Positions 8,594 through 40,504 of a DNA stretch of 64,000 nt are shown here, one piece after another. Location: positions 10,965-74,964 of the forward strand of contig CANDNO010000002.1 in assembly GCA_947386115.1 (NCBI GenBank). Reading direction: 5' to 3'. Numbering within the stretch: position 1 is the first letter of the stretch; each line of letters opens with the position of its first letter. Made by a program: the position numbers and the translations under genes. The notes below the pieces were generated by a model that was given only the letters and a program-made list of their open reading frames with translations, did no database searches and was not told the DNA's origin. This DNA comes from an uncultured Muribaculaceae bacterium. GTDB taxonomy: Bacteria > Bacteroidota > Bacteroidia > Bacteroidales > Muribaculaceae.

Positions 8594-8613
8594 TGATTGG
8601 GAGGAATTTAACA

Positions 8614-10365: not shown

Positions 10366-10392
10366 TGTAACCTTTTTAACACTACTTCAATC

Positions 10393-10884
10393 ATGAAACT
10401 ATTATATAAAAACCTACTTTTTATCTTTATCACGGTTGCTTCGGTAGTAGGATTCGCCTCTTGCCAGAAAGCCGATGAAGATTTTAAACATGACAATAAC
10501 CTCATCTCCGACATGCGTCTGAAGATGAATCCTACGGCCGAAGGTATCAAAGGCGTTATAACTGAATATAACGCGGCCGGAGAAGTGGTTTCTGGCAAAG
10601 ATTTGACCGCCAAGGCTGTACAGGGTGGATATGGAAAGATTGAATTTATCCTCAAACGCAGCCTTATCGGAGCCTACGACCTTGAGAGCTGCTACCTCTC
10701 GGCTTCTCTTACATTCGACGAGGTAATTACCCCGCCCCTCACTCGACACAATATCACCAACCGCGATGCAAATGGTGTAGCTCAAGGTACAGAATTCATT
10801 GTAACCTCGGGCATAGGAACCACACGCCGCTACATTGTTATCGGTTACTTCGAGGGTGAATATATTTTTACCGGTGAAGAATAA
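10393..10884 (+). CDS. Small lipoprotein of unknown function (PUL 1)
   Basis: 163 aa with a lipobox (VVGFASC), 27 nt after susD. I recognise no family. The antisense ORF 10414..10890 was rejected because it has no signal peptide. Confidence 0.6.
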   Translation: MKLLYKNLLFIFITVASVVGFASCQKADEDFKHDNNLISDMRLKMNPTAEGIKGVITEYNAAGEVVSGKDLTAKAVQGGYGKIEFILKRSLIGAYDLESCYLSASLTFDEVITPPLTRHNITNRDANGVAQGTEFIVTSGIGTTRRYIVIGYFEGEYIFTGEE

Positions 10885-19103: not shown

Positions 19104-21935
19104 TTAATCAATAGGTTCAATAATCATATTGTCAAGGTAGAGCGAGCACGAAGCGGCGGCGCTGGCCTTAAGCTCGACCATGCTCTTGCCGGCGGGCAGA
19201 TACACGGCGGTGGCCGATGTGTACCAGATGGTGCGGTCGCTGCCGCTCTGGGTGAACACGGGCGAGGCAACCTTGTCGCCGTTGACATAGAGGTCGAATG
19301 TAGTAACGTCGGCAGTTTCGGCGCGATAACGGAACTTGACTGAGTAGCGTCCGCCCTCGATCACGCTCACCTCGTCGCGCACGGCGGCGTTACGGCTTGT
19401 ACCCATGAGGATATAGCCCTGGCCGGTGTAGTTGCGCACGTCGAAGTCGTAACCGCTGGTGCGGCGCGAACCGATGCTCTTGAAGTCGAACACCTCGGCC
19501 TCATACTGGCGTGGACCGTAGTAGAGGTTGGGACGACCGGGCACCTGAATAGTCGATGGAGTATATTCGGTAAGGCGGTCGGTACCGTTGCCCGAGCAGG
19601 AGATTGCCAAGTCAAGCGGACCGTTGTGCTCGATGGTGAGTGTGAGCACGCCGTCGCTCCACTTCTCGTCAAGCTTGGCGGTAGCCTCGGCACGGGGAGT
19701 CATCGTCACGGCGGGCTTGGCGCCGGCACCCTTGATGCGTATCTCAGAGATAACAGGCTTGCCAGTAACGTCGTAGTGGGTGAGATAGCATGTGAGGCGG
19801 TCGGCATATTCCTTCCACACGGCAGTAGTGAAGGTCTCGAAGGTGAAGTCGATGCTCTCGCAAGTGTTGTACTTGAAGGGAACAGTGGCTGTCTTGACGC
19901 TATTCCAGGGGTTGTAGGTAACCCATGTGTTCTCGTGACGGCCGGCAAAGAGGTCGCCGGTGTATTCCTGCGGGAACTCGCGGTTGAGTTCGCGGGTCTT
20001 GGCCGAAGTGTTGGCCCAAGAGCCTACGATCTCGCTCTGGTTGCGCACGTGGGCAAACTTGGAAGCCATGCCGCCGGCAAACTCGGCGATGACGGGCATC
20101 GCGGGATAGCGGCCGGTCTTGCGCAGGTAGAAGTGATTGTCCTCGCGGCCACCGTCATGGTCGAGAGCTCCGATACCCTGGTGGAACCACTTGGGCAGGC
20201 AGTATTTCTCGATTTCGGCACCCGAATTGATATCCTGGATGATGGCATACTTGCATCGTGCTATCACCTCGTCGCGAGTCATAAGGCGTATGGTGCCGTC
20301 GAGAATCTTGCGATAGAGGTCCATGTCGATGTTGCGGAACTGGGGGAAGGTCTCCCAGTTGCGGGTCTGATAGCCGTCGCCGGCGCTTACTGCGCCGGTC
20401 TCCTTGAAGTCCTGCTGCCAGATGAGCTCGGGGCCGTCGAATACCGTCTGGCCGGTGAGCGTCGTATGCTCCAGTTTAAGAGCCGCACCGAGAGCCACGG
20501 GGAAGTCGGCTTCCTTGTCGCTGAGGTTGTAATACTTGGCAGCCCACTCGTTCCAGGCACACTGGTCGAAGCGCAGGCCATAGTTGTCGGCATGACCCGA
20601 CATCCACACGCCCAGACACTCGGCCTCGACATCGAAGAAGCAGCCCGACTGTGTGTACTTCTCACACATGATGAAGTTCTCGGAGTACATGGCCGACGTG
20701 GCGGCAAACTCGGGATTGCGCTTGATCATGGCAACGGGGTTGATGGGAGCCGACCAGTAGTTGGCACAGAAGCTCACAACGAGATAGCCTCCATACTCGT
20801 GGGTGAGTTTGAGGAGCTCGTTCCAGTGGGCCACGCGCTGGAACCATGAGGGAGAGTAAAGAGCGTCGGTCGAATCAAATCCCCAGAACTGCTCGCAGTA
20901 GTTGAAGCCGAGGAAGTTGGGGTACTCGAAGAATTCCTTGTACATACCGTATTTCTCCTCGTCAAACTGCGCGTAGCTGTCGACGTCGGGGAAGTGGCTG
21001 TAGCCGCCCGACGAGGGCTGGATCATAGCCCACAGATTGCGTTCGGCACAGGTGCGCAGCCACGATTTCACTGTCTCATAGCCATATTCGCTCACCTTGA
21101 AGCGTGCGGTAGACTCGTCGTGGCTCACCGAGAGTGAAAGGTTGAAAATACAGTAGGGAAGGATATCCTCGGGGATGAGGTCGATGATCTTGGCGGGGTC
21201 GGCATAGTTCCAGCAGTCGATGTGTACGAGCCATGCAGGATTGTTCACGTCGATGGGACGGCGCAGCTGACCCTTGAGGGGATCGTCGGGGCGGCTCGTG
21301 CCACCGCCGGCTGCAAGCTGCAGGGGCTCGGTATCGTCGCTGAAGTAGACGGTGATGTTCTCGGGGTCGGTGATATCGACCGAGCTGATGGCGCTCACCT
21401 GCTCGCCGCGCGAGGCGGGACGGAGCACGGTCTTGCCATAGTCGAGAGCGTCGATTACCCACTCGCCGTGCTCGTTGATGCTCACGCGGGGAGTGATGGC
21501 GCGCGCACCGGTGACACAGATGCGACCGTCGGGATCGTTCTCGGGAGCAAGCCACTCGCCGTCGGCGGTCCAGTAGTACACACCATCATCGCCGGGCATG
21601 GCCGCGATGGTGGGTGTATAGGTCACGTCGGCCTGCGGATAGTCGCTGAGCGCTCCCACACGGGTCTTGAGTGCCACGGTATTGCCGTCGGTAAACTCGA
21701 TCATGTAGCCGGCATCGTCGGTAAGCACCGTGGTCTTCAGCACCTTGGCGCCGGTTTCCTTGGCCTCGACAAAGCTGCGTATGGCTGCTACGTTGGCATT
21801 GATATTGTCAACGGGAGCCTCGCTTGCCTCGGGTTTCAGAACCGGAGCCTCGAACTCCTTGTCGTCACAGGCGACGAATGTAGCCGCCAGTGCCGACAGA
21901 AGTAAGGCTTGTGTGAATATACGATTGATTTTCAT
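19104..21935 (-). CDS. Large lipoprotein, putative glycoside hydrolase (possibly GH98-like) with a C-terminal CBM6/35-like module
   Basis: 943 aa with a lipobox (TFVAC). The N-terminal module contains ..GVYYWTADGEWL.. The central region looks TIM-barrel-like (WLVHIDCWNY...NLSLS...WAMIQPSSGG). The C-terminus is YEAEVFDFKSIGSRR...YTGQGYILMG...RYSVKFRYRAE. The family is guessed from PUL context, not verified. Confidence 0.4.
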   Translation of the reverse strand: MKINRIFTQALLLSALAATFVACDDKEFEAPVLKPEASEAPVDNINANVAAIRSFVEAKETGAKVLKTTVLTDDAGYMIEFTDGNTVALKTRVGALSDYPQADVTYTPTIAAMPGDDGVYYWTADGEWLAPENDPDGRICVTGARAITPRVSINEHGEWVIDALDYGKTVLRPASRGEQVSAISSVDITDPENITVYFSDDTEPLQLAAGGGTSRPDDPLKGQLRRPIDVNNPAWLVHIDCWNYADPAKIIDLIPEDILPYCIFNLSLSVSHDESTARFKVSEYGYETVKSWLRTCAERNLWAMIQPSSGGYSHFPDVDSYAQFDEEKYGMYKEFFEYPNFLGFNYCEQFWGFDSTDALYSPSWFQRVAHWNELLKLTHEYGGYLVVSFCANYWSAPINPVAMIKRNPEFAATSAMYSENFIMCEKYTQSGCFFDVEAECLGVWMSGHADNYGLRFDQCAWNEWAAKYYNLSDKEADFPVALGAALKLEHTTLTGQTVFDGPELIWQQDFKETGAVSAGDGYQTRNWETFPQFRNIDMDLYRKILDGTIRLMTRDEVIARCKYAIIQDINSGAEIEKYCLPKWFHQGIGALDHDGGREDNHFYLRKTGRYPAMPVIAEFAGGMASKFAHVRNQSEIVGSWANTSAKTRELNREFPQEYTGDLFAGRHENTWVTYNPWNSVKTATVPFKYNTCESIDFTFETFTTAVWKEYADRLTCYLTHYDVTGKPVISEIRIKGAGAKPAVTMTPRAEATAKLDEKWSDGVLTLTIEHNGPLDLAISCSGNGTDRLTEYTPSTIQVPGRPNLYYGPRQYEAEVFDFKSIGSRRTSGYDFDVRNYTGQGYILMGTSRNAAVRDEVSVIEGGRYSVKFRYRAETADVTTFDLYVNGDKVASPVFTQSGSDRTIWYTSATAVYLPAGKSMVELKASAAASCSLYLDNMIIEPID

Positions 21936-21947
21936 ATTCTTAAGTTA

Positions 21948-23618
21948 CTATTTGGTGAGTCCGTAAACGAGACCCTCATAGATGAAGTTGCGGTTGCCGT
22001 CGGCACACCAGGGAGCCACACCGGCGGCATCGTCGAGCACGCGTGCGAGACTGAAGCCGGCAGCTTTATCGCCCATAGCGGCACGGTAGGCCGAAAGTAC
22101 AGCCTCGTAATACTCGCCTATGGCTTTGCGCTCTGAGATGGTGATAGTGTTGGGATCAACGGCAATACCGTTGCGGTCGACAACACGTACCGAGAAGTTG
22201 GAAACTCTCACCTTCTTGTCGAGAACGTTAAGAGACTGCATGGCTGCTACGGCAGCGGCCTCGTTCTCGACCTGGGTCTTGTGATCCTCAGAGAAGGTGG
22301 CCGAGAGCACCAGATTAACGCCGTCGACCTTGACGCCCTTGGCTTCGAGAGCCGCAACGGCACCCTTGAGATCGGCTACATCCTGTGCAGTGTTCTTATT
22401 GACGGTGAGTGTCTGGCTCACGTAGTAGTTGACGGGAGTCTCGGAAGCGCTGTTAAGCTTGGCCTGAACCTTGGCAACGTAGTCGTCGCCCAGATAGTCG
22501 GCCCAGTTGAATGTGGCGCTCTCGTCGTCGAAGGGCTCATCATAGATGATCATGTCCTGGGCGCCTGCCGATGCTGCGGCAAGGCCGTCGACCCACTTGT
22601 CAAGCTCGCTCTGAACGATGGCTGTCTTCTCCTCGTCGCTCTTCTCAATGACGGTGTCGTCGCCGGTGAGGTGGTCGACATAGATCTGGATATCATCGAC
22701 GTAGCATGTGATTTTGTTACCGTAGGCACCGAGGGCCAGGGCAAACGAGGTCAACTGGCGCTGGGTGGCATTGAACTTGAAGTTGTCGGCATTGACAAGG
22801 AAGTCATACTGCACCCACTTGCCCGAGGCCTTGTGGTCGTTGGTGGTCAATGTCTTACCTACATTGTCGATTACGATACGCGAGCCGGTGGGGGTGCCTG
22901 TATCCTCGCGGTAGCACTTGAACGAGATGCGGGTCACATCGCCTAAGGTAACACCCTGGGGGAGTGTGATGCGGTCGATCTTGGGAAGGTCAAGCAGCAG
23001 CTGTGTGCCCTTGAGCACATGGCCATGTGTTCCGGCGGGATCTGGATCCTCGACAATCTCGACAGCCACCTTTCCGGCAGTCTTCTTGGCCGAGGGATAC
23101 TTGGTGCCGAGAGCCACGCCCTCGAAGTTCTCAGCATCGATAATCTCAGACCAGGGCTCGTAGGGGATTACCTCGGGGGCAATCATCTGGGCATAACGGT
23201 CGAATGGGAAGTTGACGAGCGAGCAGTAGGCGGGACCGAACACCGAAACACCGGCCTCGCCGGCTGTCTCGACGAGCGACTTAAGGCCGCTGAGGTCATA
23301 TTGACCTTCAGCGTCGATAAGATTCTGGGGCAGGAAACGTCCGGGAGCCTCAACCTGTGAGAAATTGTTCTTGATGATGCTGTAGACAAGAGTTTTCTTC
23401 TCAAAGTCGGCAGGATTGACCGATGTTCCCATGGTTACGTCGCCCTCGCCTGCATAGTCGGCGAGCACACCATACTGCGAGAGGTGGGCAGCCATCTGCG
23501 AGTCATACGGCGCGTCGGGCACGGGTATGGTGACGTCGTAATCCTCGTCACAGGCTGTAAGGCCGGCGATAGCCACCGCCACCGCTATTGTGGTTTTGAT
23601 ATATTTCATGTGGATCAT
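21948..23618 (-). CDS. GH10-derived lipoprotein with an inserted CBM-like module; the catalytic residues appear to be substituted
   Basis: Lipobox (GLTAC). The order of GH10-like blocks is preserved but degenerate. NNFSQVEAPGRF replaces FN.vt.eNemKw. SVFGPAYCS replaces vrGHtLvW. IIYDEPF replaces WDVVNE. VDGVNLVLSA replaces IDGIGmQsH. VRVSNFSV replaces i.iTELDv. The insert at aa 158-315 contains NFEGVALGTKY...CYVDDIQIY. The alternative start is 23609. Confidence 0.55.
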   Translation of the reverse strand: MIHMKYIKTTIAVAVAIAGLTACDEDYDVTIPVPDAPYDSQMAAHLSQYGVLADYAGEGDVTMGTSVNPADFEKKTLVYSIIKNNFSQVEAPGRFLPQNLIDAEGQYDLSGLKSLVETAGEAGVSVFGPAYCSLVNFPFDRYAQMIAPEVIPYEPWSEIIDAENFEGVALGTKYPSAKKTAGKVAVEIVEDPDPAGTHGHVLKGTQLLLDLPKIDRITLPQGVTLGDVTRISFKCYREDTGTPTGSRIVIDNVGKTLTTNDHKASGKWVQYDFLVNADNFKFNATQRQLTSFALALGAYGNKITCYVDDIQIYVDHLTGDDTVIEKSDEEKTAIVQSELDKWVDGLAAASAGAQDMIIYDEPFDDESATFNWADYLGDDYVAKVQAKLNSASETPVNYYVSQTLTVNKNTAQDVADLKGAVAALEAKGVKVDGVNLVLSATFSEDHKTQVENEAAAVAAMQSLNVLDKKVRVSNFSVRVVDRNGIAVDPNTITISERKAIGEYYEAVLSAYRAAMGDKAAGFSLARVLDDAAGVAPWCADGNRNFIYEGLVYGLTK

Positions 23619-23627
23619 GGATTAGGT

Positions 23628-24668
23628 TTATTTGACTTCGATTGAGGGATATACGGGCTTGATACCGCGGTCGCGCACCACCAGGTAATCGTCGGTCTTG
23701 AGCGACCAGCCGGGAGCTGTCACCTCATAGGTGAGACGGAGCAGGTCGCGCGGCTCGCCGTTGATGACGTTCTTCTCGCCGTCGGTGATGAATTCGCCGC
23801 TGCCGGTGATGGTCATCGAGGGGTCGGCCGACGATATGGTGCACTTGCCGTCCTCGCCAAACGCGAGGTTAAGTTTAAAGCGGTAAACGTGGTCGGCGTC
23901 GGTGCGTGTGGAGAGTTCGGCTGTACACTCGCGATAGGCCGAGGTGACTACCGATACGAGCTCGTCGTTGATGACATAGTCTTTCTTACGAGTGATCTCG
24001 GTGGTAACGCCATCCACAGTGAGACGGTCGGTGCCGCGACGCAGGTAGTTGGCGTGCCAGGGGTTCACGTAGCGCAGGAAGTAGAGCACATAGTCCTTGG
24101 GCTGTACGCTCCAGTCGGACGGCTTTACGCGAACGGGATTGGCCACTGAGGGCTTGCCCTGAAGTATCGAGTCAACACCTATGGCGCTCTCCATTACAAG
24201 GGGGAGCACATAGTTGAAGTCGAGAGCTTTGGGATCGTTGAAGAAGGCGTCGGTGAGCTGTACCACGACACCGCCGTCATGAGAACCCGAGGGGATGGTG
24301 ATAGCGCCGCTCTCGAGAGTGTAATACTCGGCGGGAAGCGGAGTGGCCTTGAGACCGCCATACTCGGCGGTGAGATACAGGTTGTCACACAGGCTCTCGT
24401 CGACCTTGATGTTGATGATGCGGTCGCGGTTGTTCTCGTAGACACCGCCCATCACGGCCTTAACCCGGAAACGGTGCTGGTTGTCATCGGTAACGTCGGC
24501 CTCCGGTTCCTTGCCCAGCTCGATGGTACGGCCGGCAGTGGGACGTGCGAAGTAGACTGTCTGGTAGTCGAAATCGGGGAACTCGTTGTCACCGTTGTGA
24601 CAAGAAGTCATCAGAGTCGACGCAACCGCTGCAATAGTGAATATCTTGATTATTTTCATTGCTGTCAT
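23628..24668 (-). CDS. DUF1735-like lipoprotein in the xusE position
   Basis: Lipobox (LMTSC). The N-terminal DNEFPDFDYQTVYFA motif is typical of DUF1735-type PUL lipoproteins. It lies immediately downstream of susD. Confidence 0.55.
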   Translation of the reverse strand: MTAMKIIKIFTIAAVASTLMTSCHNGDNEFPDFDYQTVYFARPTAGRTIELGKEPEADVTDDNQHRFRVKAVMGGVYENNRDRIINIKVDESLCDNLYLTAEYGGLKATPLPAEYYTLESGAITIPSGSHDGGVVVQLTDAFFNDPKALDFNYVLPLVMESAIGVDSILQGKPSVANPVRVKPSDWSVQPKDYVLYFLRYVNPWHANYLRRGTDRLTVDGVTTEITRKKDYVINDELVSVVTSAYRECTAELSTRTDADHVYRFKLNLAFGEDGKCTISSADPSMTITGSGEFITDGEKNVINGEPRDLLRLTYEVTAPGWSLKTDDYLVVRDRGIKPVYPSIEVK

Positions 24669-24694: not shown

Positions 24695-26476
24695 TTACCA
24701 GCCCATGTTCTGGAGCAGGTTGCTGAACTTGAGCACCTCACCCTCGGGCAGGGGACCATAGTACATGTGATCGCTGTAAGAGCGCTCCTCGACCTGGGGT
24801 ATGGGGGTATAGACGCTGTTGTTGGTGATGTTCACACCGCGGGCGCTCTCGTTGAGATCGGCTTTCCAGCGACGCAGGTCGTAGAAGCGGAAGCCCTCGA
24901 AGCAGAGCTCGAGACGACGCTCGTTACGAATGAGTTCACGCATCTTGTCGGGGCTTGTGGCACACTCTTCGAGATAGGGGTCGATCGAGATGCCAAGCGC
25001 GCGCTGGCGTATAGCCTTGATGACGTCGTAAGCCGAGTAGCCGTGCGAGCCGCTGCCCTTGGGGCCCCAAACCTCGTTGGCAGCCTCGGCGTAGGCGAGG
25101 AATATCTCGGTGTAACGGATGCGGGGGTTGAAGTGACGCTTGGGCTGCTTGCCGCCGGGGGTGCAGTTGACATCCATGCGCAGGCGCTTCTTCATGTAGT
25201 AGCCCGTGCGGGTCGAGGTCTCGCGCTTGTTGAGGCCGTCGGCGGTCGAAGCGTCAGAACCGGTGTTGATCACTGTGTTCGAAACGCCGGCCTTGCTGCC
25301 GTTGTAGATGATGTAGTGGCCCAGGCGCGGGTCGCGGCCGTTGTAGGGGTTAGACTCGTCATATTTGGCGCGGCTGTCATCGATGGGGTAACCGTTGGCC
25401 ATGGGGAACGCGTCGACAAGATTCTGGGTGGGGTTGCAGAGGCCCTTGCCATAGAGCGACGGGGGGAAGAAGTTCTCCTCCTGGGTTGTCGTACCGTCGG
25501 TCTTGTTGTCAAGATTCTCACGCCATATTATCTCCTTGGGGTTGGTGCCGTCACCGAGAGCCTCGATATCGGCAGTATTGCAATAATATGTGAGACCCTT
25601 CTTGTCCATTCCGGCGGGACCACCTATGTAGTCGAGCACGTCGGCAGCGGCATCGGCAGCAGCATCCCATGTAGAATTGGAAGCCTCAAAGGCGGGGCTT
25701 GCAGCCAGGAGGCAGATGCGGGCCTTGTAGGCACGGGCGATAAGGCCGTTGAAAAGCTGGCGGGCCGATCGACCGAACACGCGGTTGTAGGTCTGGGCCG
25801 AAGCGGTGTACTGGCTGAAGGGGGCGGGCACGGCGTCCTCGAGCGACATGTCCTCATACTCCAAGGGGAGGTTGGCCTCGGCATACTCGAGGTCGGCCAG
25901 GGCAAATTTCACACAATCCTCAAACGAGGCACGGGGCATGTTGAAATCATCGTTCACGCCCATGAAACGGTCGAGCATAGGCACGCCCTGCAGGGTACCG
26001 TCGGTAGCCACACCGCCAAACTCGCGCAGGAGGTGGAACATGAACATGCCGCGCATACCGCGAGCCTCGGCCATAGTGCGCATCTTGAACAGGTCGGCAG
26101 CCTCGGGATCCTTGGCCCATGCAACCTTCTCGGCGTTCTCGAGGAACTGGTTGATGTTCAGTATCGAGTGCATCCAGGTGTTCCAGCTGTTGCTCCAGCG
26201 CCAGTGGGTGGCGGTCCAGCCGCCCTGGGCTATCTTGCGGTAGTCGTTGTTGATGTCGTTGCACACGGCGTCGTCGGTAGCGTAATCGTTCTCGCTGTAG
26301 TAGCCGGGGACGTTACGGTAAACGTTGAGCAGGAAGCCCTGTGCATAGGTCGCGTCGTCATACATCTGGTCGAGGTCCTTGAGGTTCTCCTTCTGGGGCT
26401 CGAACACGTCGTCACAGGCGGTAAGGCTCATGGCTGCGCCCAATGCAACAATCAGTGACTTATATATTTTTTTCAT
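24695..26476 (-). CDS. SusD/RagB-family lipoprotein (second pair, xusD position)
   Basis: Lipobox (SLTAC) and the SusD signature ERRLELCFEGFRFYDLRRWK. Confidence 0.9.
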   Translation of the reverse strand: MKKIYKSLIVALGAAMSLTACDDVFEPQKENLKDLDQMYDDATYAQGFLLNVYRNVPGYYSENDYATDDAVCNDINNDYRKIAQGGWTATHWRWSNSWNTWMHSILNINQFLENAEKVAWAKDPEAADLFKMRTMAEARGMRGMFMFHLLREFGGVATDGTLQGVPMLDRFMGVNDDFNMPRASFEDCVKFALADLEYAEANLPLEYEDMSLEDAVPAPFSQYTASAQTYNRVFGRSARQLFNGLIARAYKARICLLAASPAFEASNSTWDAAADAAADVLDYIGGPAGMDKKGLTYYCNTADIEALGDGTNPKEIIWRENLDNKTDGTTTQEENFFPPSLYGKGLCNPTQNLVDAFPMANGYPIDDSRAKYDESNPYNGRDPRLGHYIIYNGSKAGVSNTVINTGSDASTADGLNKRETSTRTGYYMKKRLRMDVNCTPGGKQPKRHFNPRIRYTEIFLAYAEAANEVWGPKGSGSHGYSAYDVIKAIRQRALGISIDPYLEECATSPDKMRELIRNERRLELCFEGFRFYDLRRWKADLNESARGVNITNNSVYTPIPQVEERSYSDHMYYGPLPEGEVLKFSNLLQNMGW

Positions 26477-26500
26477 TTTCGATATCTTGATTACTTGTTA

Positions 26501-29320
26501 TCAGAATGTGAGCTTGCAGCCTAACATGTAGTGGCGGGTCTGGGGCGCGCCGGTGCTCAGCTCCATGATCTTGCGGTTGGGCGAGATGGTGGCAAGGTTT
26601 TCACCCTCGACATAGACGCTCGCACCCGACAGTACACGGTTGCCGGCAAACATGGCTACGGGGAAGTCGTAGGTGAGCTGTACGCGGCGTATGTCAAAGC
26701 GGTTGGTGCTGTATTTCCAGAATGTCGATGCCTGGGTATTGTTGGCTGTGGTACCGGTGGTGAGACGGGGTGCGGTTGCAGTCTCGGCAGTCTCGGGAGT
26801 CCAGCGGCCCCATGCCATCTCTGAGTAGCGGTCCTGGGCGCCGTTGCAGTAGTAGGGCGAGTTGTTGAAGCCGATACCGCCAGCCTGGCCTGTGCCGTAG
26901 GCAAAGAGGGTGAAGTTTTTCCAGCGGGCGGTGAGGTTGATGCCGTAGAAGAATGTCGGAGTCCAGCGGCCAAGCACTACCTGGTCCTTGGAGTCGATAA
27001 CGCCATCCTCGTTGACATCCTTATACTTGAGGTCACCGGGGCGCAGTGTGCCGCCGAATGCCTGGCGCACCTTGCGTGTGTCGATTTCATCCTGTGTCTG
27101 GAAGAATCCCTCGCATATATAGCCGCGGGCCACGCTCAGAGGCTTGCCTACGGCGCGAAGTGCCTCGGTGGCGGGCATCTCGTCGCGGCGGGTAGCCTTG
27201 TCGGTGTAATACATCCCCGAGAGGCCGAGTCCCAGCTCCCAGTCGCCTACGTTCTTGACGGCATTGACTGTGAAGTCGATACCCTGACGGCGGTCGTTGT
27301 TATAGTTGAGCCAGGGGAGGAACGAGCCCGAGTTGCCTTCCATGTAGGAGGGGAAGATCGAGTTCTTACCGGTGGTGAGACCACCCTTGGTGTCCTGGAT
27401 GAACCAGTTGGCGTTGAACGACAGGAGACGGTCGAAGATAGAGCCTTCGAGACCTACACGGAACTCCTCGCGGGTAATGAACGTGAGGTCGAGGTTGTAG
27501 CCGCGCTTGGGGAGCGAGGTGTAGCCGCCGTGTGAGCCGTCATACCACTGGAACCAGCCGCCGCCTACCTTGTAGCCGTAGTAGCCCTGATACATATAGT
27601 AGTCGGTGATGTCGATATCCTGGTGGAGCTTGGCAGCCGAGGCTGTGAGCTTGAGCTCGTCGATCCAGGGAGCGTTCTCGCTGATGAACTTCTCCTGACC
27701 TATGCGCCAGCCCAGCGACAGCGAGGGTGAGAAGGCGTTGCGGTGACCCTCGGCGAGTTTCGACGAGTGAACAAGAGCGCCCGTGAGAGTAGCATAGTAG
27801 CGGTGGGCGTAGTTGTAGGCCACCTGCAAGCCGGCATTAAGATTGGTAGTATTGTGCAACTGGCTCGAGTCGTGGTTGGCGTCGGCCGAGTTCTGTATCG
27901 AGTAACCCCAGCCCACGAGGGTGGCGTCGACCTGGTGCAGGCCGTTGAAGACGCGGTTGTAGTCAAACTGTGCACGGAACATCATGTTCTGGTGATATGT
28001 CGACTGTCCCACAAACTCGTTGGTAGAGTTGGTGTCGTCGCCATGCTTCTTGAGGTCGACGATCATATCGCGGCCGTTGACGTTGGCCCATGTGGGCTCA
28101 TACACTGCATAGTCTTCCTTATAGCCCTCGCTGTAGAACGAGCTGTAGTCGAGGCCGAACACTGTCTTGAACTTGAGACCCTCGGTAATGAAACGGAAGT
28201 CGAAGTCAAGACCCAGGTCGAACATGAAGCGACGGTTCTTGTTCTTGATATAACCGGCCTCGTAGGCATCGGCAATAGCGTTGGTCTGGTTGCTCGAGGT
28301 ACCACCCAGGAGGTAGCGGCCGTCGATGAGGGTTGCAGCACCGATGAGGCCCTGGAGCTCGGCATTGTCGGGGTCGATCATGTCGACGGGCAGCAGGACG
28401 CCGAAACGGTTGGGCCATGTGCCCGAGGCCATACCCCAAAGGTCGCCGCGCGAGGTGTAGTTGTCGGCTACGACAATCGAAGCGTTGGTGAAACCGGTAA
28501 GCCAGCTTGTGATCGCCATGTCGACATTACCGCGCACGTTGAAGCGCAGGTCGTTGTCGTTCTTGTGATCGCCCACCTTGATGAGGCCGTTGTTGTATGA
28601 CAGGCCTATGTTGAGGTAGTAGCGGGTCTTTTCGTTACCGCCGCGAATCTCGCCGTTGATGCTGTAATCGTTGGAGAACTTGCGCAGGTACTCGCTGTTG
28701 TAGTACTTCTGGTTGGGGTAACGGAAGGGATTGGTTCCGGCAGCCGAGTTGTAGATGTCGGAGGGGCTGTACTGGGGTTTGAGTCCTTCGTTGGCACAAG
28801 CCTCGTTGTACAGTGTCATGTAGCTGGCTGCGTCGAGATAGTTGGGATAACTCTTGGGCACGATGAAGCCGGCGTTGGCACGGAAATCGATTTTCATGCT
28901 CTCGTTGGCACCGCGCTTGGTGGTGATGAGTATCACACCCTTGGCGCCGCGGCTGCCGTAAAGGGCCACTGCGGCAGCGTCCTTGAGGAAGCTGATGCTC
29001 TCTACCTCGCTTGCGAGCACGTCGGCTGCATCGCGGGGCATACCGTCAACGAGTACAAGGGCATCCTGTCCCCACATGCTCGTGCCGCCGGTGTAGCCGC
29101 CCACGAGCGGTACGAGGTGACTGTCGAGGCTCGACGTGGCATAGCTCTTCTTCATCAGGTCGCTCACGTTCACCGACGAGGTAGCCGTGATGACATCATC
29201 CTTGGCGGTGGTGCCGAAAGCGACGTTGACAATGCTGTCGCTCTGAGCGGTGGCAGTAGCTCCCGCCGACACGGCAAGCGCCAAAGCCACACATCCTATA
29301 TATTTTGGAATTGTATTCAT
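26501..29320 (-). CDS. SusC-family TonB-dependent transporter lacking the CarboxypepD_reg N-domain (xusC position)
   Basis: 939 aa. The signal peptide leads directly into the plug (VLVDGMPRD...ISFLKDAAAVALYGSRGAKGVILITTKRG). The C-terminal residue is F. Confidence 0.85.
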   Translation of the reverse strand: MNTIPKYIGCVALALAVSAGATATAQSDSIVNVAFGTTAKDDVITATSSVNVSDLMKKSYATSSLDSHLVPLVGGYTGGTSMWGQDALVLVDGMPRDAADVLASEVESISFLKDAAAVALYGSRGAKGVILITTKRGANESMKIDFRANAGFIVPKSYPNYLDAASYMTLYNEACANEGLKPQYSPSDIYNSAAGTNPFRYPNQKYYNSEYLRKFSNDYSINGEIRGGNEKTRYYLNIGLSYNNGLIKVGDHKNDNDLRFNVRGNVDMAITSWLTGFTNASIVVADNYTSRGDLWGMASGTWPNRFGVLLPVDMIDPDNAELQGLIGAATLIDGRYLLGGTSSNQTNAIADAYEAGYIKNKNRRFMFDLGLDFDFRFITEGLKFKTVFGLDYSSFYSEGYKEDYAVYEPTWANVNGRDMIVDLKKHGDDTNSTNEFVGQSTYHQNMMFRAQFDYNRVFNGLHQVDATLVGWGYSIQNSADANHDSSQLHNTTNLNAGLQVAYNYAHRYYATLTGALVHSSKLAEGHRNAFSPSLSLGWRIGQEKFISENAPWIDELKLTASAAKLHQDIDITDYYMYQGYYGYKVGGGWFQWYDGSHGGYTSLPKRGYNLDLTFITREEFRVGLEGSIFDRLLSFNANWFIQDTKGGLTTGKNSIFPSYMEGNSGSFLPWLNYNNDRRQGIDFTVNAVKNVGDWELGLGLSGMYYTDKATRRDEMPATEALRAVGKPLSVARGYICEGFFQTQDEIDTRKVRQAFGGTLRPGDLKYKDVNEDGVIDSKDQVVLGRWTPTFFYGINLTARWKNFTLFAYGTGQAGGIGFNNSPYYCNGAQDRYSEMAWGRWTPETAETATAPRLTTGTTANNTQASTFWKYSTNRFDIRRVQLTYDFPVAMFAGNRVLSGASVYVEGENLATISPNRKIMELSTGAPQTRHYMLGCKLTF

Positions 29321-29345
29321 TGTTTTGTTTCAAGTGTTTAAGGTA

Positions 29346-31265
29346 TTACCAGCCGGGGTTCTGCTTTAACTCGGGATAAATGTTCACATCCTTGATGGGG
29401 AAAGGCAGCCAGTAGTGACGGTCGTCGAGATTGCGCTCAACGATCACTTCCTCACGCAGGTTGGCCACGCGCGACTCGCTGGGATTGCGCAGGTTGAAAT
29501 CGGCCGTACGGTCAAACTCGAGCGATGTCTTGATTGTATAGGGACGCTCGGTGAACAGCAGCCAGCGGCGCAGGTCGAAGAAGCGGTGTCCCTCGAAGGC
29601 CAGCTCTACTGCTCTCTCGCGATAAAGCTCGGGAAGGAACGTAGCATTAGAGCCGGTGAAACGGGCAGCGATGCCGGGCATCTTGACATTCTCGCGAATC
29701 TTGTTGACAGCCTGCAGGGCGTTCATGTGGAACTTGGGCGACTTGCCTGTGGGCGATCCGTAGCCACATGCAGCAGCCTCGGAGTAGAGGAGATAGACGT
29801 CGCTCAGACGCATGAGGCTCAACGACATAACCATACCACTGCTGTACTGGTCGAGCAGCTGATAGGTCGAACGCTCGTTGAGCTGGGGAATGAACTTGGT
29901 CTCCAACAGGCCGGTAAGACAGTTCTTGTAAGAAGCCTTCGTGCGCCAGTCGCCACCGGTGAAGAGCTGTGCATAACGGCGTGTCTCGGGTTGCGAGGCG
30001 TCCTTCATGCAATAGCATCCGTCATAGGTGATGTCGGTATAGAAGCGGGGATCACGGCCGCGCCAGGGATAGGCGGGATCGTAGCCCGATACGGGATCGG
30101 CCTGTGTCCAGTCCTCGATAGGCTCGCCGTTGGCCATGCCGTAGTTCTTGACATAGTTGGCTGTAGGCATTACGATAAGACCCGAGGTAACGATGAAGGG
30201 AAGGTAGTCGTTACTCTGGTTACGCTGCCAGCGTGTGCTGAGCTCGGCGAAGTTTTCCATGAGGATAGACTCCTTGAGGCCGGGGATACGTGAGCCCTGC
30301 TCTACATAATAGAAGAGCTCAGAGCGACGCTCGAAGGGAGCGAGCTCATAACGGCCTGTCGACTCGGTGAGGCTGAGGGCCTCGCCAAGGAGATCGGCTG
30401 CACGCTTGCAGTAATCTTCGTTATAGGTGCGCGAACCGGTCGACTCGTAGTTCATCAACGGGCTGCCGGCATAGAGCAGGCACTTGCCTGCGAAGGCCAG
30501 GGCCATGATCTTGTTGGCGCGGAAGTTGTTGTTGCCAAGTGTAAGACGGCCGGCGGCAGTCTGGTCCCAGTCGATGGGGAGCAGTTCGGCAGCGTCGGTA
30601 AGGTCCTTGGCGGCCTTGTCGGCACACTCCTGGTAGTTGAGACGCTCAAGACGGGGAGTCTCGCCGGCAGGGAGCAGATAATCTACGTAGGGAAGTCCGC
30701 CCCAGTATTTCATGAGCAGCGCGTGGTAGTAGCCACGGAAGAAGAGCATCTGACCCTTGAGCAGGTCGCGTTCCTCCTGGGTAGCGCTCTGCAGGCGGTC
30801 GAGATTGGCAAGACCCATGTTGGCCTTGCGTATGCCGGCCCAGCTCATGGCCCAGAGATTCTTCTTGTGCTCGCGGGTGTTTGACGACATGCTGCCGGTG
30901 AGCATTCCGGCGGGAGAGCCGTAGAAGTTCTGCTCGCCGCCGCCGTTGAGGTTCTGGTCGACCATACAGCGGTAGTTGCCGTTGTCGATGGCCAGAGTGA
31001 GGAAACGCACTTCGTCCTGGTTGTCCTTGACGTGCTCGTCCTCACCAAAGTTCCAGCAGCAGTGCCATGACGATGCCGAGTACAACGGGAGACCGCCATA
31101 CAGCTCCTCGACAAATCCCTGGAAATTCTTGAAATTCATGTAGGGGGTGTTCTCGTCGATATCGCTGCCCGGAGCCTTGTCCAGGTAGTCGGTACACGAG
31201 GCTGTGGCTACGAGAGCGCCGGCCACCATGGCCCCTTTGAATATATTCTTTATATATGTGTTCAT
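29346..31265 (-). CDS. SusD/RagB-family lipoprotein (first pair, xusB position)
   Basis: Lipobox (ATASC) and the signature ERAVELAFEGHRFFDLRRWL. Confidence 0.9.
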   Translation of the reverse strand: MNTYIKNIFKGAMVAGALVATASCTDYLDKAPGSDIDENTPYMNFKNFQGFVEELYGGLPLYSASSWHCCWNFGEDEHVKDNQDEVRFLTLAIDNGNYRCMVDQNLNGGGEQNFYGSPAGMLTGSMSSNTREHKKNLWAMSWAGIRKANMGLANLDRLQSATQEERDLLKGQMLFFRGYYHALLMKYWGGLPYVDYLLPAGETPRLERLNYQECADKAAKDLTDAAELLPIDWDQTAAGRLTLGNNNFRANKIMALAFAGKCLLYAGSPLMNYESTGSRTYNEDYCKRAADLLGEALSLTESTGRYELAPFERRSELFYYVEQGSRIPGLKESILMENFAELSTRWQRNQSNDYLPFIVTSGLIVMPTANYVKNYGMANGEPIEDWTQADPVSGYDPAYPWRGRDPRFYTDITYDGCYCMKDASQPETRRYAQLFTGGDWRTKASYKNCLTGLLETKFIPQLNERSTYQLLDQYSSGMVMSLSLMRLSDVYLLYSEAAACGYGSPTGKSPKFHMNALQAVNKIRENVKMPGIAARFTGSNATFLPELYRERAVELAFEGHRFFDLRRWLLFTERPYTIKTSLEFDRTADFNLRNPSESRVANLREEVIVERNLDDRHYWLPFPIKDVNIYPELKQNPGW

Positions 31266-31278
31266 GATTTGATCGTGG

Positions 31279-34200
31279 TTATAGGGTTATGTCAATACCT
31301 ATGTTGAAGCGTCGTACGGTGGGATAAGCGCCGTCGCTGCCGTCGCCTGCGCCGCTGAAGTTGGACTCGCGGTCATCGGGCATCTTGGTCCAGAGCCACA
31401 GGTTGTCGCCGTTGAGATAGATGCGGCAGCTGTTGAGGCCGATCTTGCGGGTGAGCTTCTGGGGGATACGGTAGGAAATCTCGGCGTTCTTCAGGCGCAC
31501 GTATGAACCGTCATAGAGATAGCGGGTACCACGGGCCATGACGGGATAGGTCGACGACCAGCGGGGCAAGGGGAGTCCCTCGGTATCGGGGGTCCAGTAG
31601 CTACCCTCCTTGTAGGCAAGAGTGTTGCCGTTGAAAGTGGGGAACGTTACCGTACGCGACACGTTGGTCACACCATAGAACTGTACGAAAGCGCTGAAGC
31701 CTTTCCACTCGAAGCCGAGCGTGGCGTTATAGGTGTTCTGAGGTATGGTGCTGTAGCCGTAGGGAATCTCGTCGTTGGCGTCGATGATACCGTCGCCGTT
31801 GAAGTCGATGAGCTTATAGTCGCCGGGCAGACGGTTGGCGTTGTCCGACTCCCATGAGGTAGCGCCGTAAAGGTCGTCCCAAGAACCGATCTGGCCGAAA
31901 TCGACATAATCCTTGTTCTGGTTGATGGCGTAGCCCTCGCTCTTCATGTAGCTGGGAAGCAGGGGAGCGTCGTCGCGGAATTTCACCTTGTTGGTGGCAT
32001 GGGTCATGCTGGCGTTAAGCCACACGCGGGTGTCCTGGTTGATAGGATAGTTGAAACGTATCTCAAGCTCGTAACCCTTTGAGTCGACACGGCCCAGGTT
32101 GGCACCGGGAGCCTCGGCTCCGAAGTAAGAGGGAATGGCACGCTGGTTGCCGCTGATGTAGATGTCGGTACGCTTGTCGGCAAAGAAGTCTAACGAACCC
32201 GAAATCATGTTGTGCAGGAAGCCGTAGTCAACACCGATGTTGCGTTTTTCAACCTTCTCCCACGAGATGTCGGGGTTGCCGAGCATCGACAGGCGGTAGA
32301 ATGTATAAGGTGTCTTGGCTGCGCCGCCGATAGCCTCGGTAATGTTGCCACCATAGACATACTGGTCGCGGTAGAGCCAACGGCCACCGGCGCTGTCGTC
32401 GCCGACCTTACCCCACGAACCGCGGAACTTGATCTGGTCGAGCCATGTGAGATGACGCATGAAAGGCTCCTGACTCAGACGCCATCCGAGCGAGAATGAC
32501 GGGAAGAAGTCGAAGCGGTTGTTAGAGCCGAATTTCTCCGAGCCGTTGTATGCACCGTTGAACTCGAAGAAGTAACGGTAGTCGAAGTTATAGGTTGTAC
32601 GGAATACCCAGTCCTCACGGTAGTGGTGGAACTCCGAGCCGCGGGCATAATCCTCACGGGTGAAAGCGCCCATGGCGGTTACCTCGTGCTTGCCGAATGT
32701 GCGGCTGTAGTCGATCTGGAATGCATAGTAAACCTTACGGAAAGTGGCGTTGAGGTCAACGACACCCTGCGAGTTGCGCCAGTAGACGCCAAACGACGGG
32801 TCGAGGCCCGTAGCCGAGTCGATCTCGGGATCAACGCTTATCTCGCCGGTAACGGGATTTACCCATTTGCGGGGGAGGTTGTTGTCAAGGTCGTTGATAC
32901 CACGGCGGTTCTCGATGAAGTTATAGTCGAGCGACAGGCGAGCCTGGGCGTGGAGACCCTTGGTGATGAAGTCGAGATCCTGGCCCAGGATAAGGTCGGA
33001 GTTGATCTTGGTTGTAGTGATTTTCTCCTTACCCGATGTTGCGAGTGCATAAACCGAGTTCTGGACGTTGGCCTTCGAGGGACCGTAGAAACCGTAGAGA
33101 CCGTCGCTGTAGATGGGGCGGAACGAATCGGGGGCGGTGCGGTACACCGAGTTCCAGAACGATGCGTTGCTGTCGCCAACGTTACGGCCGAAGGGGGTCT
33201 GCTTGCTGCCGTTAGAGCCGAAGAGGTTTACGGTAAGTTTGGTGGTGGGAGTGAGCGAGAAGTCAAGGTTTGAACGCACGTTGACACGCTGGAATCCGAA
33301 ACCGGGAGTATAGCCGCGGCCACCGTCGAACGAACGGAAAAGGTCACCCTCCTTCAGGAAGTCGACAGCTGCATAGTATTTCACGAATTTGGTACCGCCC
33401 GATACGTCGACGCTGGCGTTGTACGAGAAAGCGGCTTTCTTGAACAGCACGTCTTCCCAGTCGACATTGGGGTAGCGGTCCCACTCCTCGGCGTTGAGAG
33501 GATTGCGGAACTTCTCGATAAACTCCATGGGCATTACATCGTCCCAAGCGCCTACGCCGGGCGACATAAGGTCGCGCTGGATGGCGCGGTTGCGCAGCAT
33601 GTAGGCGTCATAGGCGTCATACTTTGCGGGGAGCTTCGAAGCCACCTTGGCTGTGATGTTGGCCTTGGCGTGAACCTGTGCCTTGCCCTCGCTGCCTCGC
33701 TTGGTGGTGATAAGGATAACGCCGTTAGCGCCTTTCACACCATACACGGCGGTTGCCGAAGCATCCTTGAGCACCGAGATGTTGGCTACCGACGAGATGT
33801 CGACCGAGCTCATCTCACGCTCGATACCGTCAACGAGGATGAGGGGCGAACTGTTGTTCCACGAGCTCTGCGAGCGGATGATGATCTGAGGGTCCTCCTC
33901 GCCGGGCATACCCGACGATGCCGATGTGATCACACCGGGAAGGTTACCAGTGAGGGCCGCACCCACACTCGACACACCGCCGGCACGCTCGAGCACTTCG
34001 CCCGATGCCTGAGTGATGGCACCTACCACCGACGCCTTTTTCTGCTGGCCGTAACCTACCACGACAACCTCGTCGAGCTGGGTGGTGTTCGTCTCCATGG
34101 TGACGTTGATGACAGTCTGTCCTTTAATAGCTATCTCCTTGGGATTCATGCCTATGAATGAAAACACAAGGACTCCCGTCTGCAAGTCGGGAACATTGAG

Positions 34201-34398
34201 CGTATAGTTACCGTCAAAGTCGGTAGCGGTAGCTACGCCCGTAGCCCCTTTGAGCAAAACTGTCGCTCCTATCAGGGGCTCTCCGGTATCATCGACCACC
34301 GTACCTTTTACTGTCTCGGCTACAGCCGGTGCAGCGCCTATGATAAGCGCCAACAGCAACACGACGAGGTGATGATATGAGTTGGTAATTTTTTTCAT
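31279..34398 (-). CDS. SusC/RagA-family TonB-dependent transporter (first pair, xusA position)
   Basis: CarboxypepD_reg-like N-terminus (VKGTVVDDTGEPLIGATVLLK) and plug motif DEVVVVGYGQQKKASVVGAITQ. The start is set at MKKITNSY (34398). Confidence 0.9.
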   Translation of the reverse strand: MKKITNSYHHLVVLLLALIIGAAPAVAETVKGTVVDDTGEPLIGATVLLKGATGVATATDFDGNYTLNVPDLQTGVLVFSFIGMNPKEIAIKGQTVINVTMETNTTQLDEVVVVGYGQQKKASVVGAITQASGEVLERAGGVSSVGAALTGNLPGVITSASSGMPGEEDPQIIIRSQSSWNNSSPLILVDGIEREMSSVDISSVANISVLKDASATAVYGVKGANGVILITTKRGSEGKAQVHAKANITAKVASKLPAKYDAYDAYMLRNRAIQRDLMSPGVGAWDDVMPMEFIEKFRNPLNAEEWDRYPNVDWEDVLFKKAAFSYNASVDVSGGTKFVKYYAAVDFLKEGDLFRSFDGGRGYTPGFGFQRVNVRSNLDFSLTPTTKLTVNLFGSNGSKQTPFGRNVGDSNASFWNSVYRTAPDSFRPIYSDGLYGFYGPSKANVQNSVYALATSGKEKITTTKINSDLILGQDLDFITKGLHAQARLSLDYNFIENRRGINDLDNNLPRKWVNPVTGEISVDPEIDSATGLDPSFGVYWRNSQGVVDLNATFRKVYYAFQIDYSRTFGKHEVTAMGAFTREDYARGSEFHHYREDWVFRTTYNFDYRYFFEFNGAYNGSEKFGSNNRFDFFPSFSLGWRLSQEPFMRHLTWLDQIKFRGSWGKVGDDSAGGRWLYRDQYVYGGNITEAIGGAAKTPYTFYRLSMLGNPDISWEKVEKRNIGVDYGFLHNMISGSLDFFADKRTDIYISGNQRAIPSYFGAEAPGANLGRVDSKGYELEIRFNYPINQDTRVWLNASMTHATNKVKFRDDAPLLPSYMKSEGYAINQNKDYVDFGQIGSWDDLYGATSWESDNANRLPGDYKLIDFNGDGIIDANDEIPYGYSTIPQNTYNATLGFEWKGFSAFVQFYGVTNVSRTVTFPTFNGNTLAYKEGSYWTPDTEGLPLPRWSSTYPVMARGTRYLYDGSYVRLKNAEISYRIPQKLTRKIGLNSCRIYLNGDNLWLWTKMPDDRESNFSGAGDGSDGAYPTVRRFNIGIDITL

Positions 34399-34550
34399 TG
34401 TTACTCTTCTTAAAGATAATAACTTAGTGATTTGTGATAAGCCGGTGTCCACGCAAGACACCATTGATTGGGGTTTGAATTAAGTGAATGGTACTGGATG
34501 CAGGTAAATGTGATGTTAGTTATTTAGTATGGTTAGTAAATAGTGAAAAT

Positions 34551-40312: not shown

Positions 40313-40461
40313 CAAACCGTTTATTCCCTCGGCAGGCACACGATGTAGCAACAATATTAGTGTTTGCCACGCAGTTGCCGTTTTCGTATCAAATGTATCA
40401 CTAATTGTAACATCGTTCGATTTTGTCTCATAAAAGCCATGTTACATCGGGTGTTTTGTTA

Positions 40462-40469
40462 TAACTTTG
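40462..40469 (+). promoter_or_regulatory. -7 box (TAACTTTG) for the hybrid two-component sensor gene
   Basis: Matches TAnnTTTG, 36 nt upstream of ATG 40505. Confidence 0.45.
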
Positions 40470-40504
40470 GGGCATCGAAAAACAGAAATCCGAAATCTGA
40501 AATC

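What the first reader, a model, noticed from the sequence alone, without database searches (positions are those of the whole stretch)
21948..23618. The xyn10C-position gene encodes a GH10 scaffold that appears catalytically dead and carries a CBM insertion
The gene order susC-susD-susC-susD-lipoprotein-X on the minus strand (34398 to 21948) matches the conserved xusA-B-C-D-E-xyn10C xylan core known from Prevotella and Bacteroides.

Protein X keeps the order of GH10 sequence blocks and the mid-barrel CBM insertion (aa about 158-315; nt 22674-23147). However, several key positions are substituted.
- The block that should hold the nucleophile (i.iTELDv) reads VRVSNFSV, so Glu becomes Asn474 (nt 22197-22199).
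- The eN.mK block reads APGRF.
- The GHtLvW block reads GPAYCS.
- The WDVVNE block reads IIYDEPF.

This suggests a xylanase recruited as a non-catalytic surface xylan-binding lipoprotein. No intact GH10 is present anywhere in this window.
Basis: inference. Interest (0 to 1): 0.6.

Follow-up and report, generated by a model that had tools for sequence, protein, structure and literature searches.

The report
Inactive GH10 xylan-binding lipoprotein, known kind
This gene encodes a xylanase-derived surface lipoprotein that has lost its catalytic nucleophile; it is a Muribaculaceae counterpart of the "inactive GH10" xylan-binding protein BACOVA_03431 described in Bacteroides ovatus in 2015, so it is real but ordinary.

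Summary
Window 21948-23618 (-) encodes a 556-aa lipoprotein with a GH10 (beta/alpha)8 barrel interrupted by one CBM-like jelly-roll (about aa 151-318).

Profile alignments put Asn474 at the nucleophile Glu. The -1/-2 subsite residues (N/K of eNxmK, H/W of GHxLxW, N of vNDY, Q/H of QxH) are all replaced. One correction: the acid/base Glu is kept (E361 in "YDEP").

Rogowski et al. 2015 showed that BACOVA_03431 of B. ovatus PUL-XylL is a surface "inactive GH10" that binds xylan.
- I recovered that protein (ALJ48332.1). It is 29-30% identical to this one over the full length.
- Both fall in one 32-member clade in which no member has the nucleophile Glu.
- Both occupy the same slot: SusC-SusD-SusC-SusD, then a BACOVA_03430/3N91 homologue, then this gene, then GH98.

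The gene is under purifying selection (dN/dS about 0.14). The window has no intact GH10, but the genome has three elsewhere, including a PUL-XylS-like locus with a CBM4-interrupted GH10.

What differs here: one CBM-like module instead of two, a retained acid/base Glu, and a Muribaculaceae host. Verdict: new member of a known kind, low interest.

The parts
21948..23618 (-). Gene for the 556-aa pseudo-GH10 lipoprotein (P0001). The true start is probably the second ATG at 23609 (aa 4, MKYIK...), as in its homologues.
   Evidence: L001 and B. ovatus homologues begin MKH/MKY.
23550..23618 (-). Signal peptide with lipobox LTA-C23. It is followed by the acidic stretch DEDYD, the type of lipoprotein surface-export signal known in Bacteroidota.
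   Evidence: Read directly from the sequence. C23 is invariant in the 42-sequence family. The surface-export reading rests on established knowledge and was not tested.
23169..23501 (-). N-terminal part of the GH10 barrel (aa ~40-150). It holds the degenerate eNxmK block (G93, L96) and the degenerate GHxLxW block (P129, S133).
22665..23168 (-). Single CBM-like beta-jelly-roll inserted in the barrel (aa ~151-318). It sits at the same site as the tandem CBM4 insert of Xyn10C-type GH10s.
   Evidence: It is 27% identical (E = 6e-11) to module 1 of the 477-aa protein downstream.
21951..22664 (-). C-terminal part of the GH10 barrel (aa 319-556). It contains E361 (acid/base retained, nt 22536-22538), S401, V437, S439, N474 (nucleophile lost, nt 22197-22199) and W537.
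23628..24668 (-). Upstream DUF5627/BT_3987-like lipoprotein, a homologue of BACOVA_03430 (PDB 3N91).
   Evidence: E = 2.3e-91
24695..34464 (-). Tandem SusC/SusD pairs: SusC 31279-34464, SusD 29346-31265, SusC 26501-29320, SusD 24695-26476.
19104..21935 (-). Downstream GH98 with a C-terminal CBM6-like module. It is the probable endo-xylanase of the locus.
   Evidence: PDB 9h6f, 1024 bits. The role of GH98 in PUL-XylL comes from PMC4491172.
17578..19011 (-). 477-aa CBM-only protein whose first module is related to the insert of the pseudo-GH10.
40364..44545 (+). Hybrid two-component sensor (HTCS) of the PUL.

Best explanation
The gene encodes a lipid-anchored, probably surface-exposed protein descended from a Xyn10C-type GH10 xylanase, the type whose barrel is interrupted by CBM modules. 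It no longer hydrolyses xylan.

- The nucleophile Glu is Asn474, and nearly all -1/-2 subsite residues are replaced.
- Only the acid/base Glu361 and a C-terminal Trp537 survive.

By homology with BACOVA_03431 of B. ovatus PUL-XylL, it most likely acts as a surface glycan-binding protein. It would capture complex (glucurono)arabinoxylan at the cell surface, using the inserted CBM-like jelly-roll, the remnant cleft, or both. It would hold the polymer near the neighbouring GH98 endo-xylanase and the two SusC/D transporters.

What is shown here: fold, homology, residue losses, synteny, clade membership and purifying selection. What is inferred: surface location, xylan binding, and which surface binds.
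For: **GH10 descent**
- Pfam 24.1 bits.
- Family profile against PDB GH10s, E = 8e-13.
- hhalign to this genome's own intact GH10, 98.6%.
- Foldseek TM ~0.7.

**Loss of catalysis**
- The signature is GLPSDESVSN against NKHWNENQHE in intact GH10s.
- No Glu occurs at the nucleophile column in any of the 42 family members.
- Active-site columns conserved at >= 85% in 67 intact relatives are lost in the 32-member clade, while core columns are kept.

**Same kind as BACOVA_03431**
- P0354, recovered next to a gene 100% identical to PDB 3N91 (BACOVA_03430), is ALJ48332.1 of B. ovatus.
- It aligns with P0001 end to end at 29-30% identity, E = 4e-33 and 1e-30.
- The two share a 32-row clade (SH-aLRT 91; 95 with one more row) in which no member has the nucleophile Glu.

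**Synteny.** The order SusC-D-C-D, DUF5627, pseudo-GH10, then GH98 or the CBM-only protein is conserved in Muribaculaceae, a Prevotella MAG and Bacteroides.

**Published function of the B. ovatus protein.** It is surface located, inactive on xylans, and binds birch glucuronoxylan and corn xylan (PMC4491172).

**Not a decaying gene**
- dN/dS is 0.14 against the 76%-identical relative; the insert is the most constrained part at 0.10.
- Full-length ORFs are kept down to 41% identity.

**Anchoring and insert**
- Lipobox Cys23 is invariant.
- The insert folds as a CBM22/4-like jelly-roll.
Against: - No binding or activity data exist for this protein or for any Muribaculaceae member.
- Identity to the one characterised relative is only about 30%.
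- The domain count differs: one insert module here against two in B. ovatus.
- The neighbouring BACOVA_03430 was also a candidate SGBP and turned out not to bind xylan, so position in a PUL does not guarantee binding.
- The insert gives no Pfam CBM hit, and its structural matches are only moderate (TM 0.5-0.6).
- The acid/base Glu is retained in this subclade, which leaves a formal possibility of some chemistry.
- dS is near saturation (about 1.2), so dN/dS is approximate.
Confidence: 0.8

Rival explanations
1. It is a non-binding structural component of the outer-membrane SusC/D-enzyme complex, for example a docking partner for GH98 or the SusCD pairs, rather than a glycan-binding protein in its own right.
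For: - It shows strict co-occurrence and tight spacing with the tandem SusC/D pairs and the DUF5627 protein.
- The neighbouring BACOVA_03430, also once a candidate SGBP, did not bind xylans.
- Clade-specific invariant residues (Y27, K326, N435, R471, R497, E548) are not obviously sugar-binding aromatic residues.
Against: - The characterised relative BACOVA_03431 does bind xylans.
- The protein keeps a CBM-like jelly-roll under the strongest constraint, dN/dS 0.10.
Confidence: 0.12
2. It is still an enzyme. It would use the retained acid/base Glu361 with a non-canonical nucleophile or mechanism, or act on another substrate.
For: - E361 is retained in this subclade, and 66% of the 32-member clade keep it.
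- Some relatives carry Asp at the nucleophile column.
Against: - Asn474 cannot act as a nucleophile in a retaining mechanism.
- His, Trp, Asn, Gln and His of the -1 subsite and Asn and Lys of the -2 subsite are all replaced.
- More distant family members lose the acid/base Glu as well, to Q, D or N.
- The B. ovatus relative was inactive on xylans.
Confidence: 0.04
3. It is a decaying pseudogene remnant of a GH10 with no function.
For: Loss of the catalytic residues.
Against: - The ORF is intact, with dN/dS 0.14-0.32 against three relatives.
- Full-length orthologues occur in at least 40 lineages, with conserved synteny.
Confidence: 0.01

Closest known systems
BACOVA_03431 (ALJ48332.1), the 'inactive GH10' surface glycan-binding protein of Bacteroides ovatus PUL-XylL (Rogowski et al. 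2015, Nat Commun 6:7481, PMC4491172)
   Same: - Full-length homologue (29-30% identity) in the same nucleophile-less clade.
- Lipoprotein.
- Nucleophile Glu lost and -2 subsite residues replaced.
- Same slot after two SusC/D pairs and a BACOVA_03430 (3N91) homologue, next to GH98, in a PUL with GH43, GH115, esterases and an HTCS.
   Different: - 556 aa with one CBM-like insert, against 750 aa with two.
- Acid/base Glu retained (E361) here, against Asn in B. ovatus.
- Nucleophile position is Asn here, against Asp in B. ovatus.
- No GH30 gene between it and GH98.
- Host is a Muribaculaceae (Duncaniella-like) genome rather than Bacteroides.
- No biochemistry.
Xyn10C-type surface GH10 xylanases with a CBM4 insertion (P. 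bryantii Xyn10C; BACOVA_04390 of PUL-XylS; this genome's own 783-aa GH10 on contig C92)
   Same: - Lipoprotein N-terminus.
- GH10 barrel interrupted at the same point by CBM-type jelly-roll module(s).
- Shared linker and C-terminal motifs.
- Position after SusC/D in a xylan PUL.
- hhalign probability 98.6%.
   Different: - Those are active: the signature NKHWNENQHE is intact, and the insert gives Pfam CBM_4_9 hits.
- Here all signature positions but one are replaced, and the insert is too diverged for Pfam.
GH18 chitinase-like lectins (chi-lectins), the analogy drawn by Rogowski et al.
   Same: A glycoside-hydrolase barrel that lost catalytic residues and is used as a carbohydrate-binding protein.
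   Different: Unrelated family, eukaryotic, and no PUL context. This is an analogy only.

Membership tests
GH10 (by descent) | Sequence and fold homology to the GH10 (beta/alpha)8 barrel | tested here: met
   Pfam 24.1 bits against 22.1. Profile against PDB, E = 8e-13. hhalign 98.6%. Foldseek TM ~0.7.
GH10 (functional xylanase) | Catalytic nucleophile Glu in the iTELD block | tested here: not met
   Asn474 (VRVSNFSV) aligns to the Glu in three independent alignments. No family member has Glu there.
GH10 (functional xylanase) | Catalytic acid/base Glu in the WDVvNE block | tested here: met
   E361 aligns to the Glu. The flanking W, D and N are replaced by M, I and D.
GH10 (functional xylanase) | Conserved -1/-2 subsite residues (N and K of eNxmK; H and W of GHxLxW; N of vNDY; Q and H of QxH) | tested here: not met
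   They read G93, L96, P129, S133, S401, V437 and S439, against N, K, H, W, N, Q and H in 67 intact relatives.
Inactive-GH10 SGBP (BACOVA_03431 type) | Homology to BACOVA_03431 and placement in its clade | tested here: met
   BLASTP E = 4e-33 and 1e-30 over the full length. The common ancestor defines a 32-row clade with no nucleophile Glu, SH-aLRT 91, or 95 for 33 rows.
Inactive-GH10 SGBP (BACOVA_03431 type) | Position in a PUL-XylL-like core: two SusC/D pairs, a BACOVA_03430 homologue, this gene, GH98 | tested here: met
Inactive-GH10 SGBP (BACOVA_03431 type) | Surface-exposed lipoprotein | tested here: inconclusive
   Lipobox Cys23 and the acidic +2 to +6 stretch (DEDYD) are present. Surface exposure can only be predicted from sequence.
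Inactive-GH10 SGBP (BACOVA_03431 type) | Binds xylan without hydrolysing it | not testable with these tools
   Needs ITC or affinity gels plus activity assays on recombinant protein.
CBM4/CBM22-type module (the insert) | Beta-jelly-roll CBM fold inserted in the barrel | tested here: met
   Insert model pLDDT 90.8. Best Foldseek hits are CBM22, CBM11, CBM16, CBM4 and SGBP-B, TM 0.5-0.6.
CBM4/CBM22-type module (the insert) | Sequence-level membership (Pfam CBM_4_9 or similar) | tested here: not met
   No CBM family at E <= 0.01 for P0001. This genome's own intact GH10 does hit CBM_4_9.

The most novel reading that the evidence does not exclude
The xyn10C slot of Bacteroidota xylan PULs may have turned enzymes into binders repeatedly. 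Rogowski et al. wrote that no other natural inactive GH10 was known.

- Among the 150 best representatives at 50% identity, about 70 lack the nucleophile Glu.
- One old clade spans Bacteroides, Prevotella/Hallella and Muribaculaceae and includes this gene.
- Well-supported branches force at least 4-5 further independent losses.
- The clade has its own invariant residues (Y27, K326, N435, R471, R497, E548). These could mark a re-tooled binding or docking surface on the dead barrel rather than on the CBM.
Probability: 0.45. Interest if true: 0.4.

Novelty: new member of a known kind. Interest (0 to 1): 0.2.

Why it matters
The practical value is for annotation. Public records name proteins of this clade, including BACOVA_03431 itself and a close Duncaniella relative, "endo-1,4-beta-xylanase". 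CAZyme counts for Muribaculaceae and other gut Bacteroidota would therefore overstate xylanase content.

It also extends the known range of the locus. The PUL-XylL-type core (tandem SusC/D, DUF5627 protein, dead GH10, GH98) was reported in 2015 as almost confined to B. ovatus and B. xylanisolvens. Here it also turns up in some Muribaculaceae genomes, which suggests they can use complex cereal xylans. In a sample of 121 Muribaculaceae genomes, 5 (this genome among them) matched the family profile at E <= 1e-30. Some of those matches may be active Xyn10C-type GH10s.

The concept itself is not new.

Tried and rejected
- **Single-sequence PDB search** with P0001 found nothing useful; the family profile was needed.
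- **NCBIfam** gave no hit for P0001.
- **The genome-contig scan** with the family alignment did not reach Bacteroides, because the back-translated patterns were too specific. I reached BACOVA_03431 indirectly: from the PDB 3N91 sequence of its neighbour, to a homology search, to the encoding contig.
- **The first cluster look-up** of ten representatives did not contain B. ovatus.
- **Rooting the tree** with this genome's two non-Xyn10C GH10s failed. They aligned to only 17-21% of the columns, so the direction of change rests on Glu being the universal GH10 state.
- **One signature column was dropped.** I first took it for the 'tiWG' Trp, but it is variable in real GH10s.
- **Decaying pseudogene** was rejected on dN/dS and conservation.

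Full report
**What is there.** Window 21948-23618 (-) is an intact 556-aa ORF (P0001).
- It begins with a signal peptide and the lipobox LTA-C23, followed by the acidic stretch DEDYD. Cys23 is invariant in the family.
- The second ATG (aa 4, nt 23609) is the more likely start, because homologues begin MKH/MKY.
- The gene lies 9-18 nt after the upstream gene and 12 nt before the next one, all on the minus strand.

**GH10 homology.**
- On its own the protein just passes Pfam's GH10 threshold (24.1 against 22.1 bits, aa 332-509). It finds nothing in the PDB.
- I collected 44 relatives, almost all from Muribaculaceae or Duncaniella assemblies, and aligned 42 of them (A1).
- The profile hits solved GH10 xylanases in two pieces, aa ~55-139 and ~320-502, best E = 8e-13.
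- It aligns over 499 columns with this genome's own intact CBM-interrupted GH10 (hhalign probability 98.6%, E = 7.6e-16).
- The AlphaFold model (pLDDT 86.8) matches GH10 structures with TM about 0.7, normalised by target length.

**Catalytic residues.**
- Three independent alignments put Asn474 (VRVSNFSV) on the nucleophile Glu of iTELD.
- N and K of eNxmK become G93 and L96.
- H and W of GHxLxW become P129 and S133.
- N of vNDY becomes S401.
- Q and H of QxH become V437 and S439.
- As a control, the same ten columns read NKHWNENQHE in bona fide GH10s, including the one on contig C92.
- Across the 42-member family the nucleophile column is N, D, S, G, A or V, or a gap in a few sequences, and never E. 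The acid/base column is E in close relatives and Q or D in distant ones.
- I compared 67 intact relatives with the 32-member clade. Core and structural columns are shared, active-site columns are lost, and a few residues are newly invariant (Y27, K326, N435, R471, R497, E548).

**The insert.**
- Residues ~151-318 form a beta-sandwich.
- Modelled alone (pLDDT 90.8), it resembles CBM22, CBM11, CBM16, CBM4 and SGBP-B modules at TM 0.5-0.6.
- It sits at the same point of the barrel as the tandem CBM4_9 modules of the intact GH10 on C92.
- It gives no Pfam CBM hit itself.
- It is 27% identical (E = 6e-11) to the first module of the 477-aa protein two genes downstream.

**Context.** The locus reads, in gene order:
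1. HTCS
2. GH115
3. SGNH-esterase-GH43 fusion
4. GH43
5. SusC, SusD, SusC, SusD
6. DUF5627 protein
7. this gene
8. GH98
9. CBM-only protein
10. esterase
11. GH127

- The DUF5627 protein matches PDB 3N91 at E = 2.3e-91.
- The GH98 matches solved GH98 structures at 1024 bits.
- The order from SusC to the pseudo-GH10 is conserved in 15 or more Muribaculaceae loci, a Prevotella MAG and Bacteroides.

**The precedent.** Rogowski et al. 2015 (PMC4491172) described B. ovatus PUL-XylL.
- BACOVA_03430 is the 3N91 protein and does not bind xylan.
- BACOVA_03431 is a surface lipoprotein with GH10 similarity. [quoted passage not shown]
- A 2016 paper repeats that PUL-XylL encodes an inactive GH10 in the core xylan utilisation cluster.

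**Direct comparison with BACOVA_03431.**
- I searched with the 3N91 sequence and found the 100%-identical protein.
- I fetched its contig. The next gene (750 aa, P0354) is sequence-identical to ALJ48332.1 of B. ovatus.
- P0001 and P0354 align end to end at 29-30% identity (E = 4e-33 and 1e-30).
- P0354 has two insert modules, Asn at the acid/base position and Asp at the nucleophile position.

**Phylogeny.**
- I built a maximum-likelihood tree of 149-151 representatives from barrel columns only, with the signature columns removed.
- P0001 and P0354 share a 32-row clade (SH-aLRT 91; 95 for 33 rows) in which no member has the nucleophile Glu.
- One ancient loss shared by both is therefore the simplest reading.
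- Elsewhere on the tree, well-supported branches force at least 4-5 further losses.

**Is it functional?**
- dN/dS against the 76%-identical relative is 0.14, and 0.10 for the insert. It is 0.31-0.32 against two relatives at 50-53% identity. dS is near saturation.
- Together with conserved full-length ORFs and synteny, this excludes a decaying pseudogene.

**Genome-wide view.**
- The window has no intact GH10, but the genome has three.
- One of them sits in SusC-SusD-SGBP-GH10(CBM4x2) on contig C92, a PUL-XylS-like locus. The genome thus mirrors the two-PUL arrangement of B. ovatus.
- The pseudo-GH10 is single copy.
- It appears patchy in the family. In a sample of 121 Muribaculaceae genomes, 5 (this genome among them) matched the family profile at E <= 1e-30, and some of those matches may be active Xyn10C-type GH10s.

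**Verdict.** This is a new member of a known kind. It differs in having one insert module, a retained acid/base Glu and a Muribaculaceae host. Binding, surface exposure and the location of the binding site remain inferred.

Noticed in passing
L029 (G000 contig C92) 22-10438: A second, PUL-XylS-like xylan locus in the same genome: SusC, SusD, an SGBP_B_XBD protein, an intact 783-aa GH10 with two CBM4_9 inserts, and a GH35-like gene. The SusC appears split into 762-aa and 266-aa ORFs (8150-10438 and 7281-8081). This may be a frameshift or an assembly error.
   Followed up: partly
window 17578-19011 (-): The 477-aa CBM-only protein carries a module related to the pseudo-GH10 insert (27% identity, E = 6e-11; family profile E = 9e-15). 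In more distant Muribaculaceae loci this gene directly follows the pseudo-GH10 in place of GH98.
   Followed up: partly
L016 (JAMPHR010000001.1, 712-kb scaffold): A MAG labelled 'Paenibacillus sp.' carries the whole Muribaculaceae-type locus (SusC/D pairs, DUF5627, pseudo-GH10, GH98, GH127) at 48-77% identity. The taxonomic label of that bin is almost certainly wrong.
   Followed up: no
P0012-P0023; L016-L018: Close Duncaniella relatives (46-48% identity) are about 730 aa, which fits two insert modules as in B. ovatus; I did not check this. They are the sister group of the 556-aa P0001/P0003 pair. If they do carry two modules, this lineage probably lost one recently.
   Followed up: partly
representatives P0046-P0192: Besides nucleophile losses, about 11 representatives keep the nucleophile Glu but have H, D, Q, V or F at the acid/base position. 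These are other possible pseudo-GH10 lineages.
   Followed up: no
window 44523-44545: The convergent HTCS (+) and GH115 (-) ORFs overlap by 23 nt at their 3' ends.
   Followed up: no
public annotations: Proteins of this nucleophile-less clade, including BACOVA_03431 itself and the Duncaniella relative WP_303029362.1, are named 'endo-1,4-beta-xylanase' in NCBI and UniRef. This is an over-annotation.
   Followed up: no
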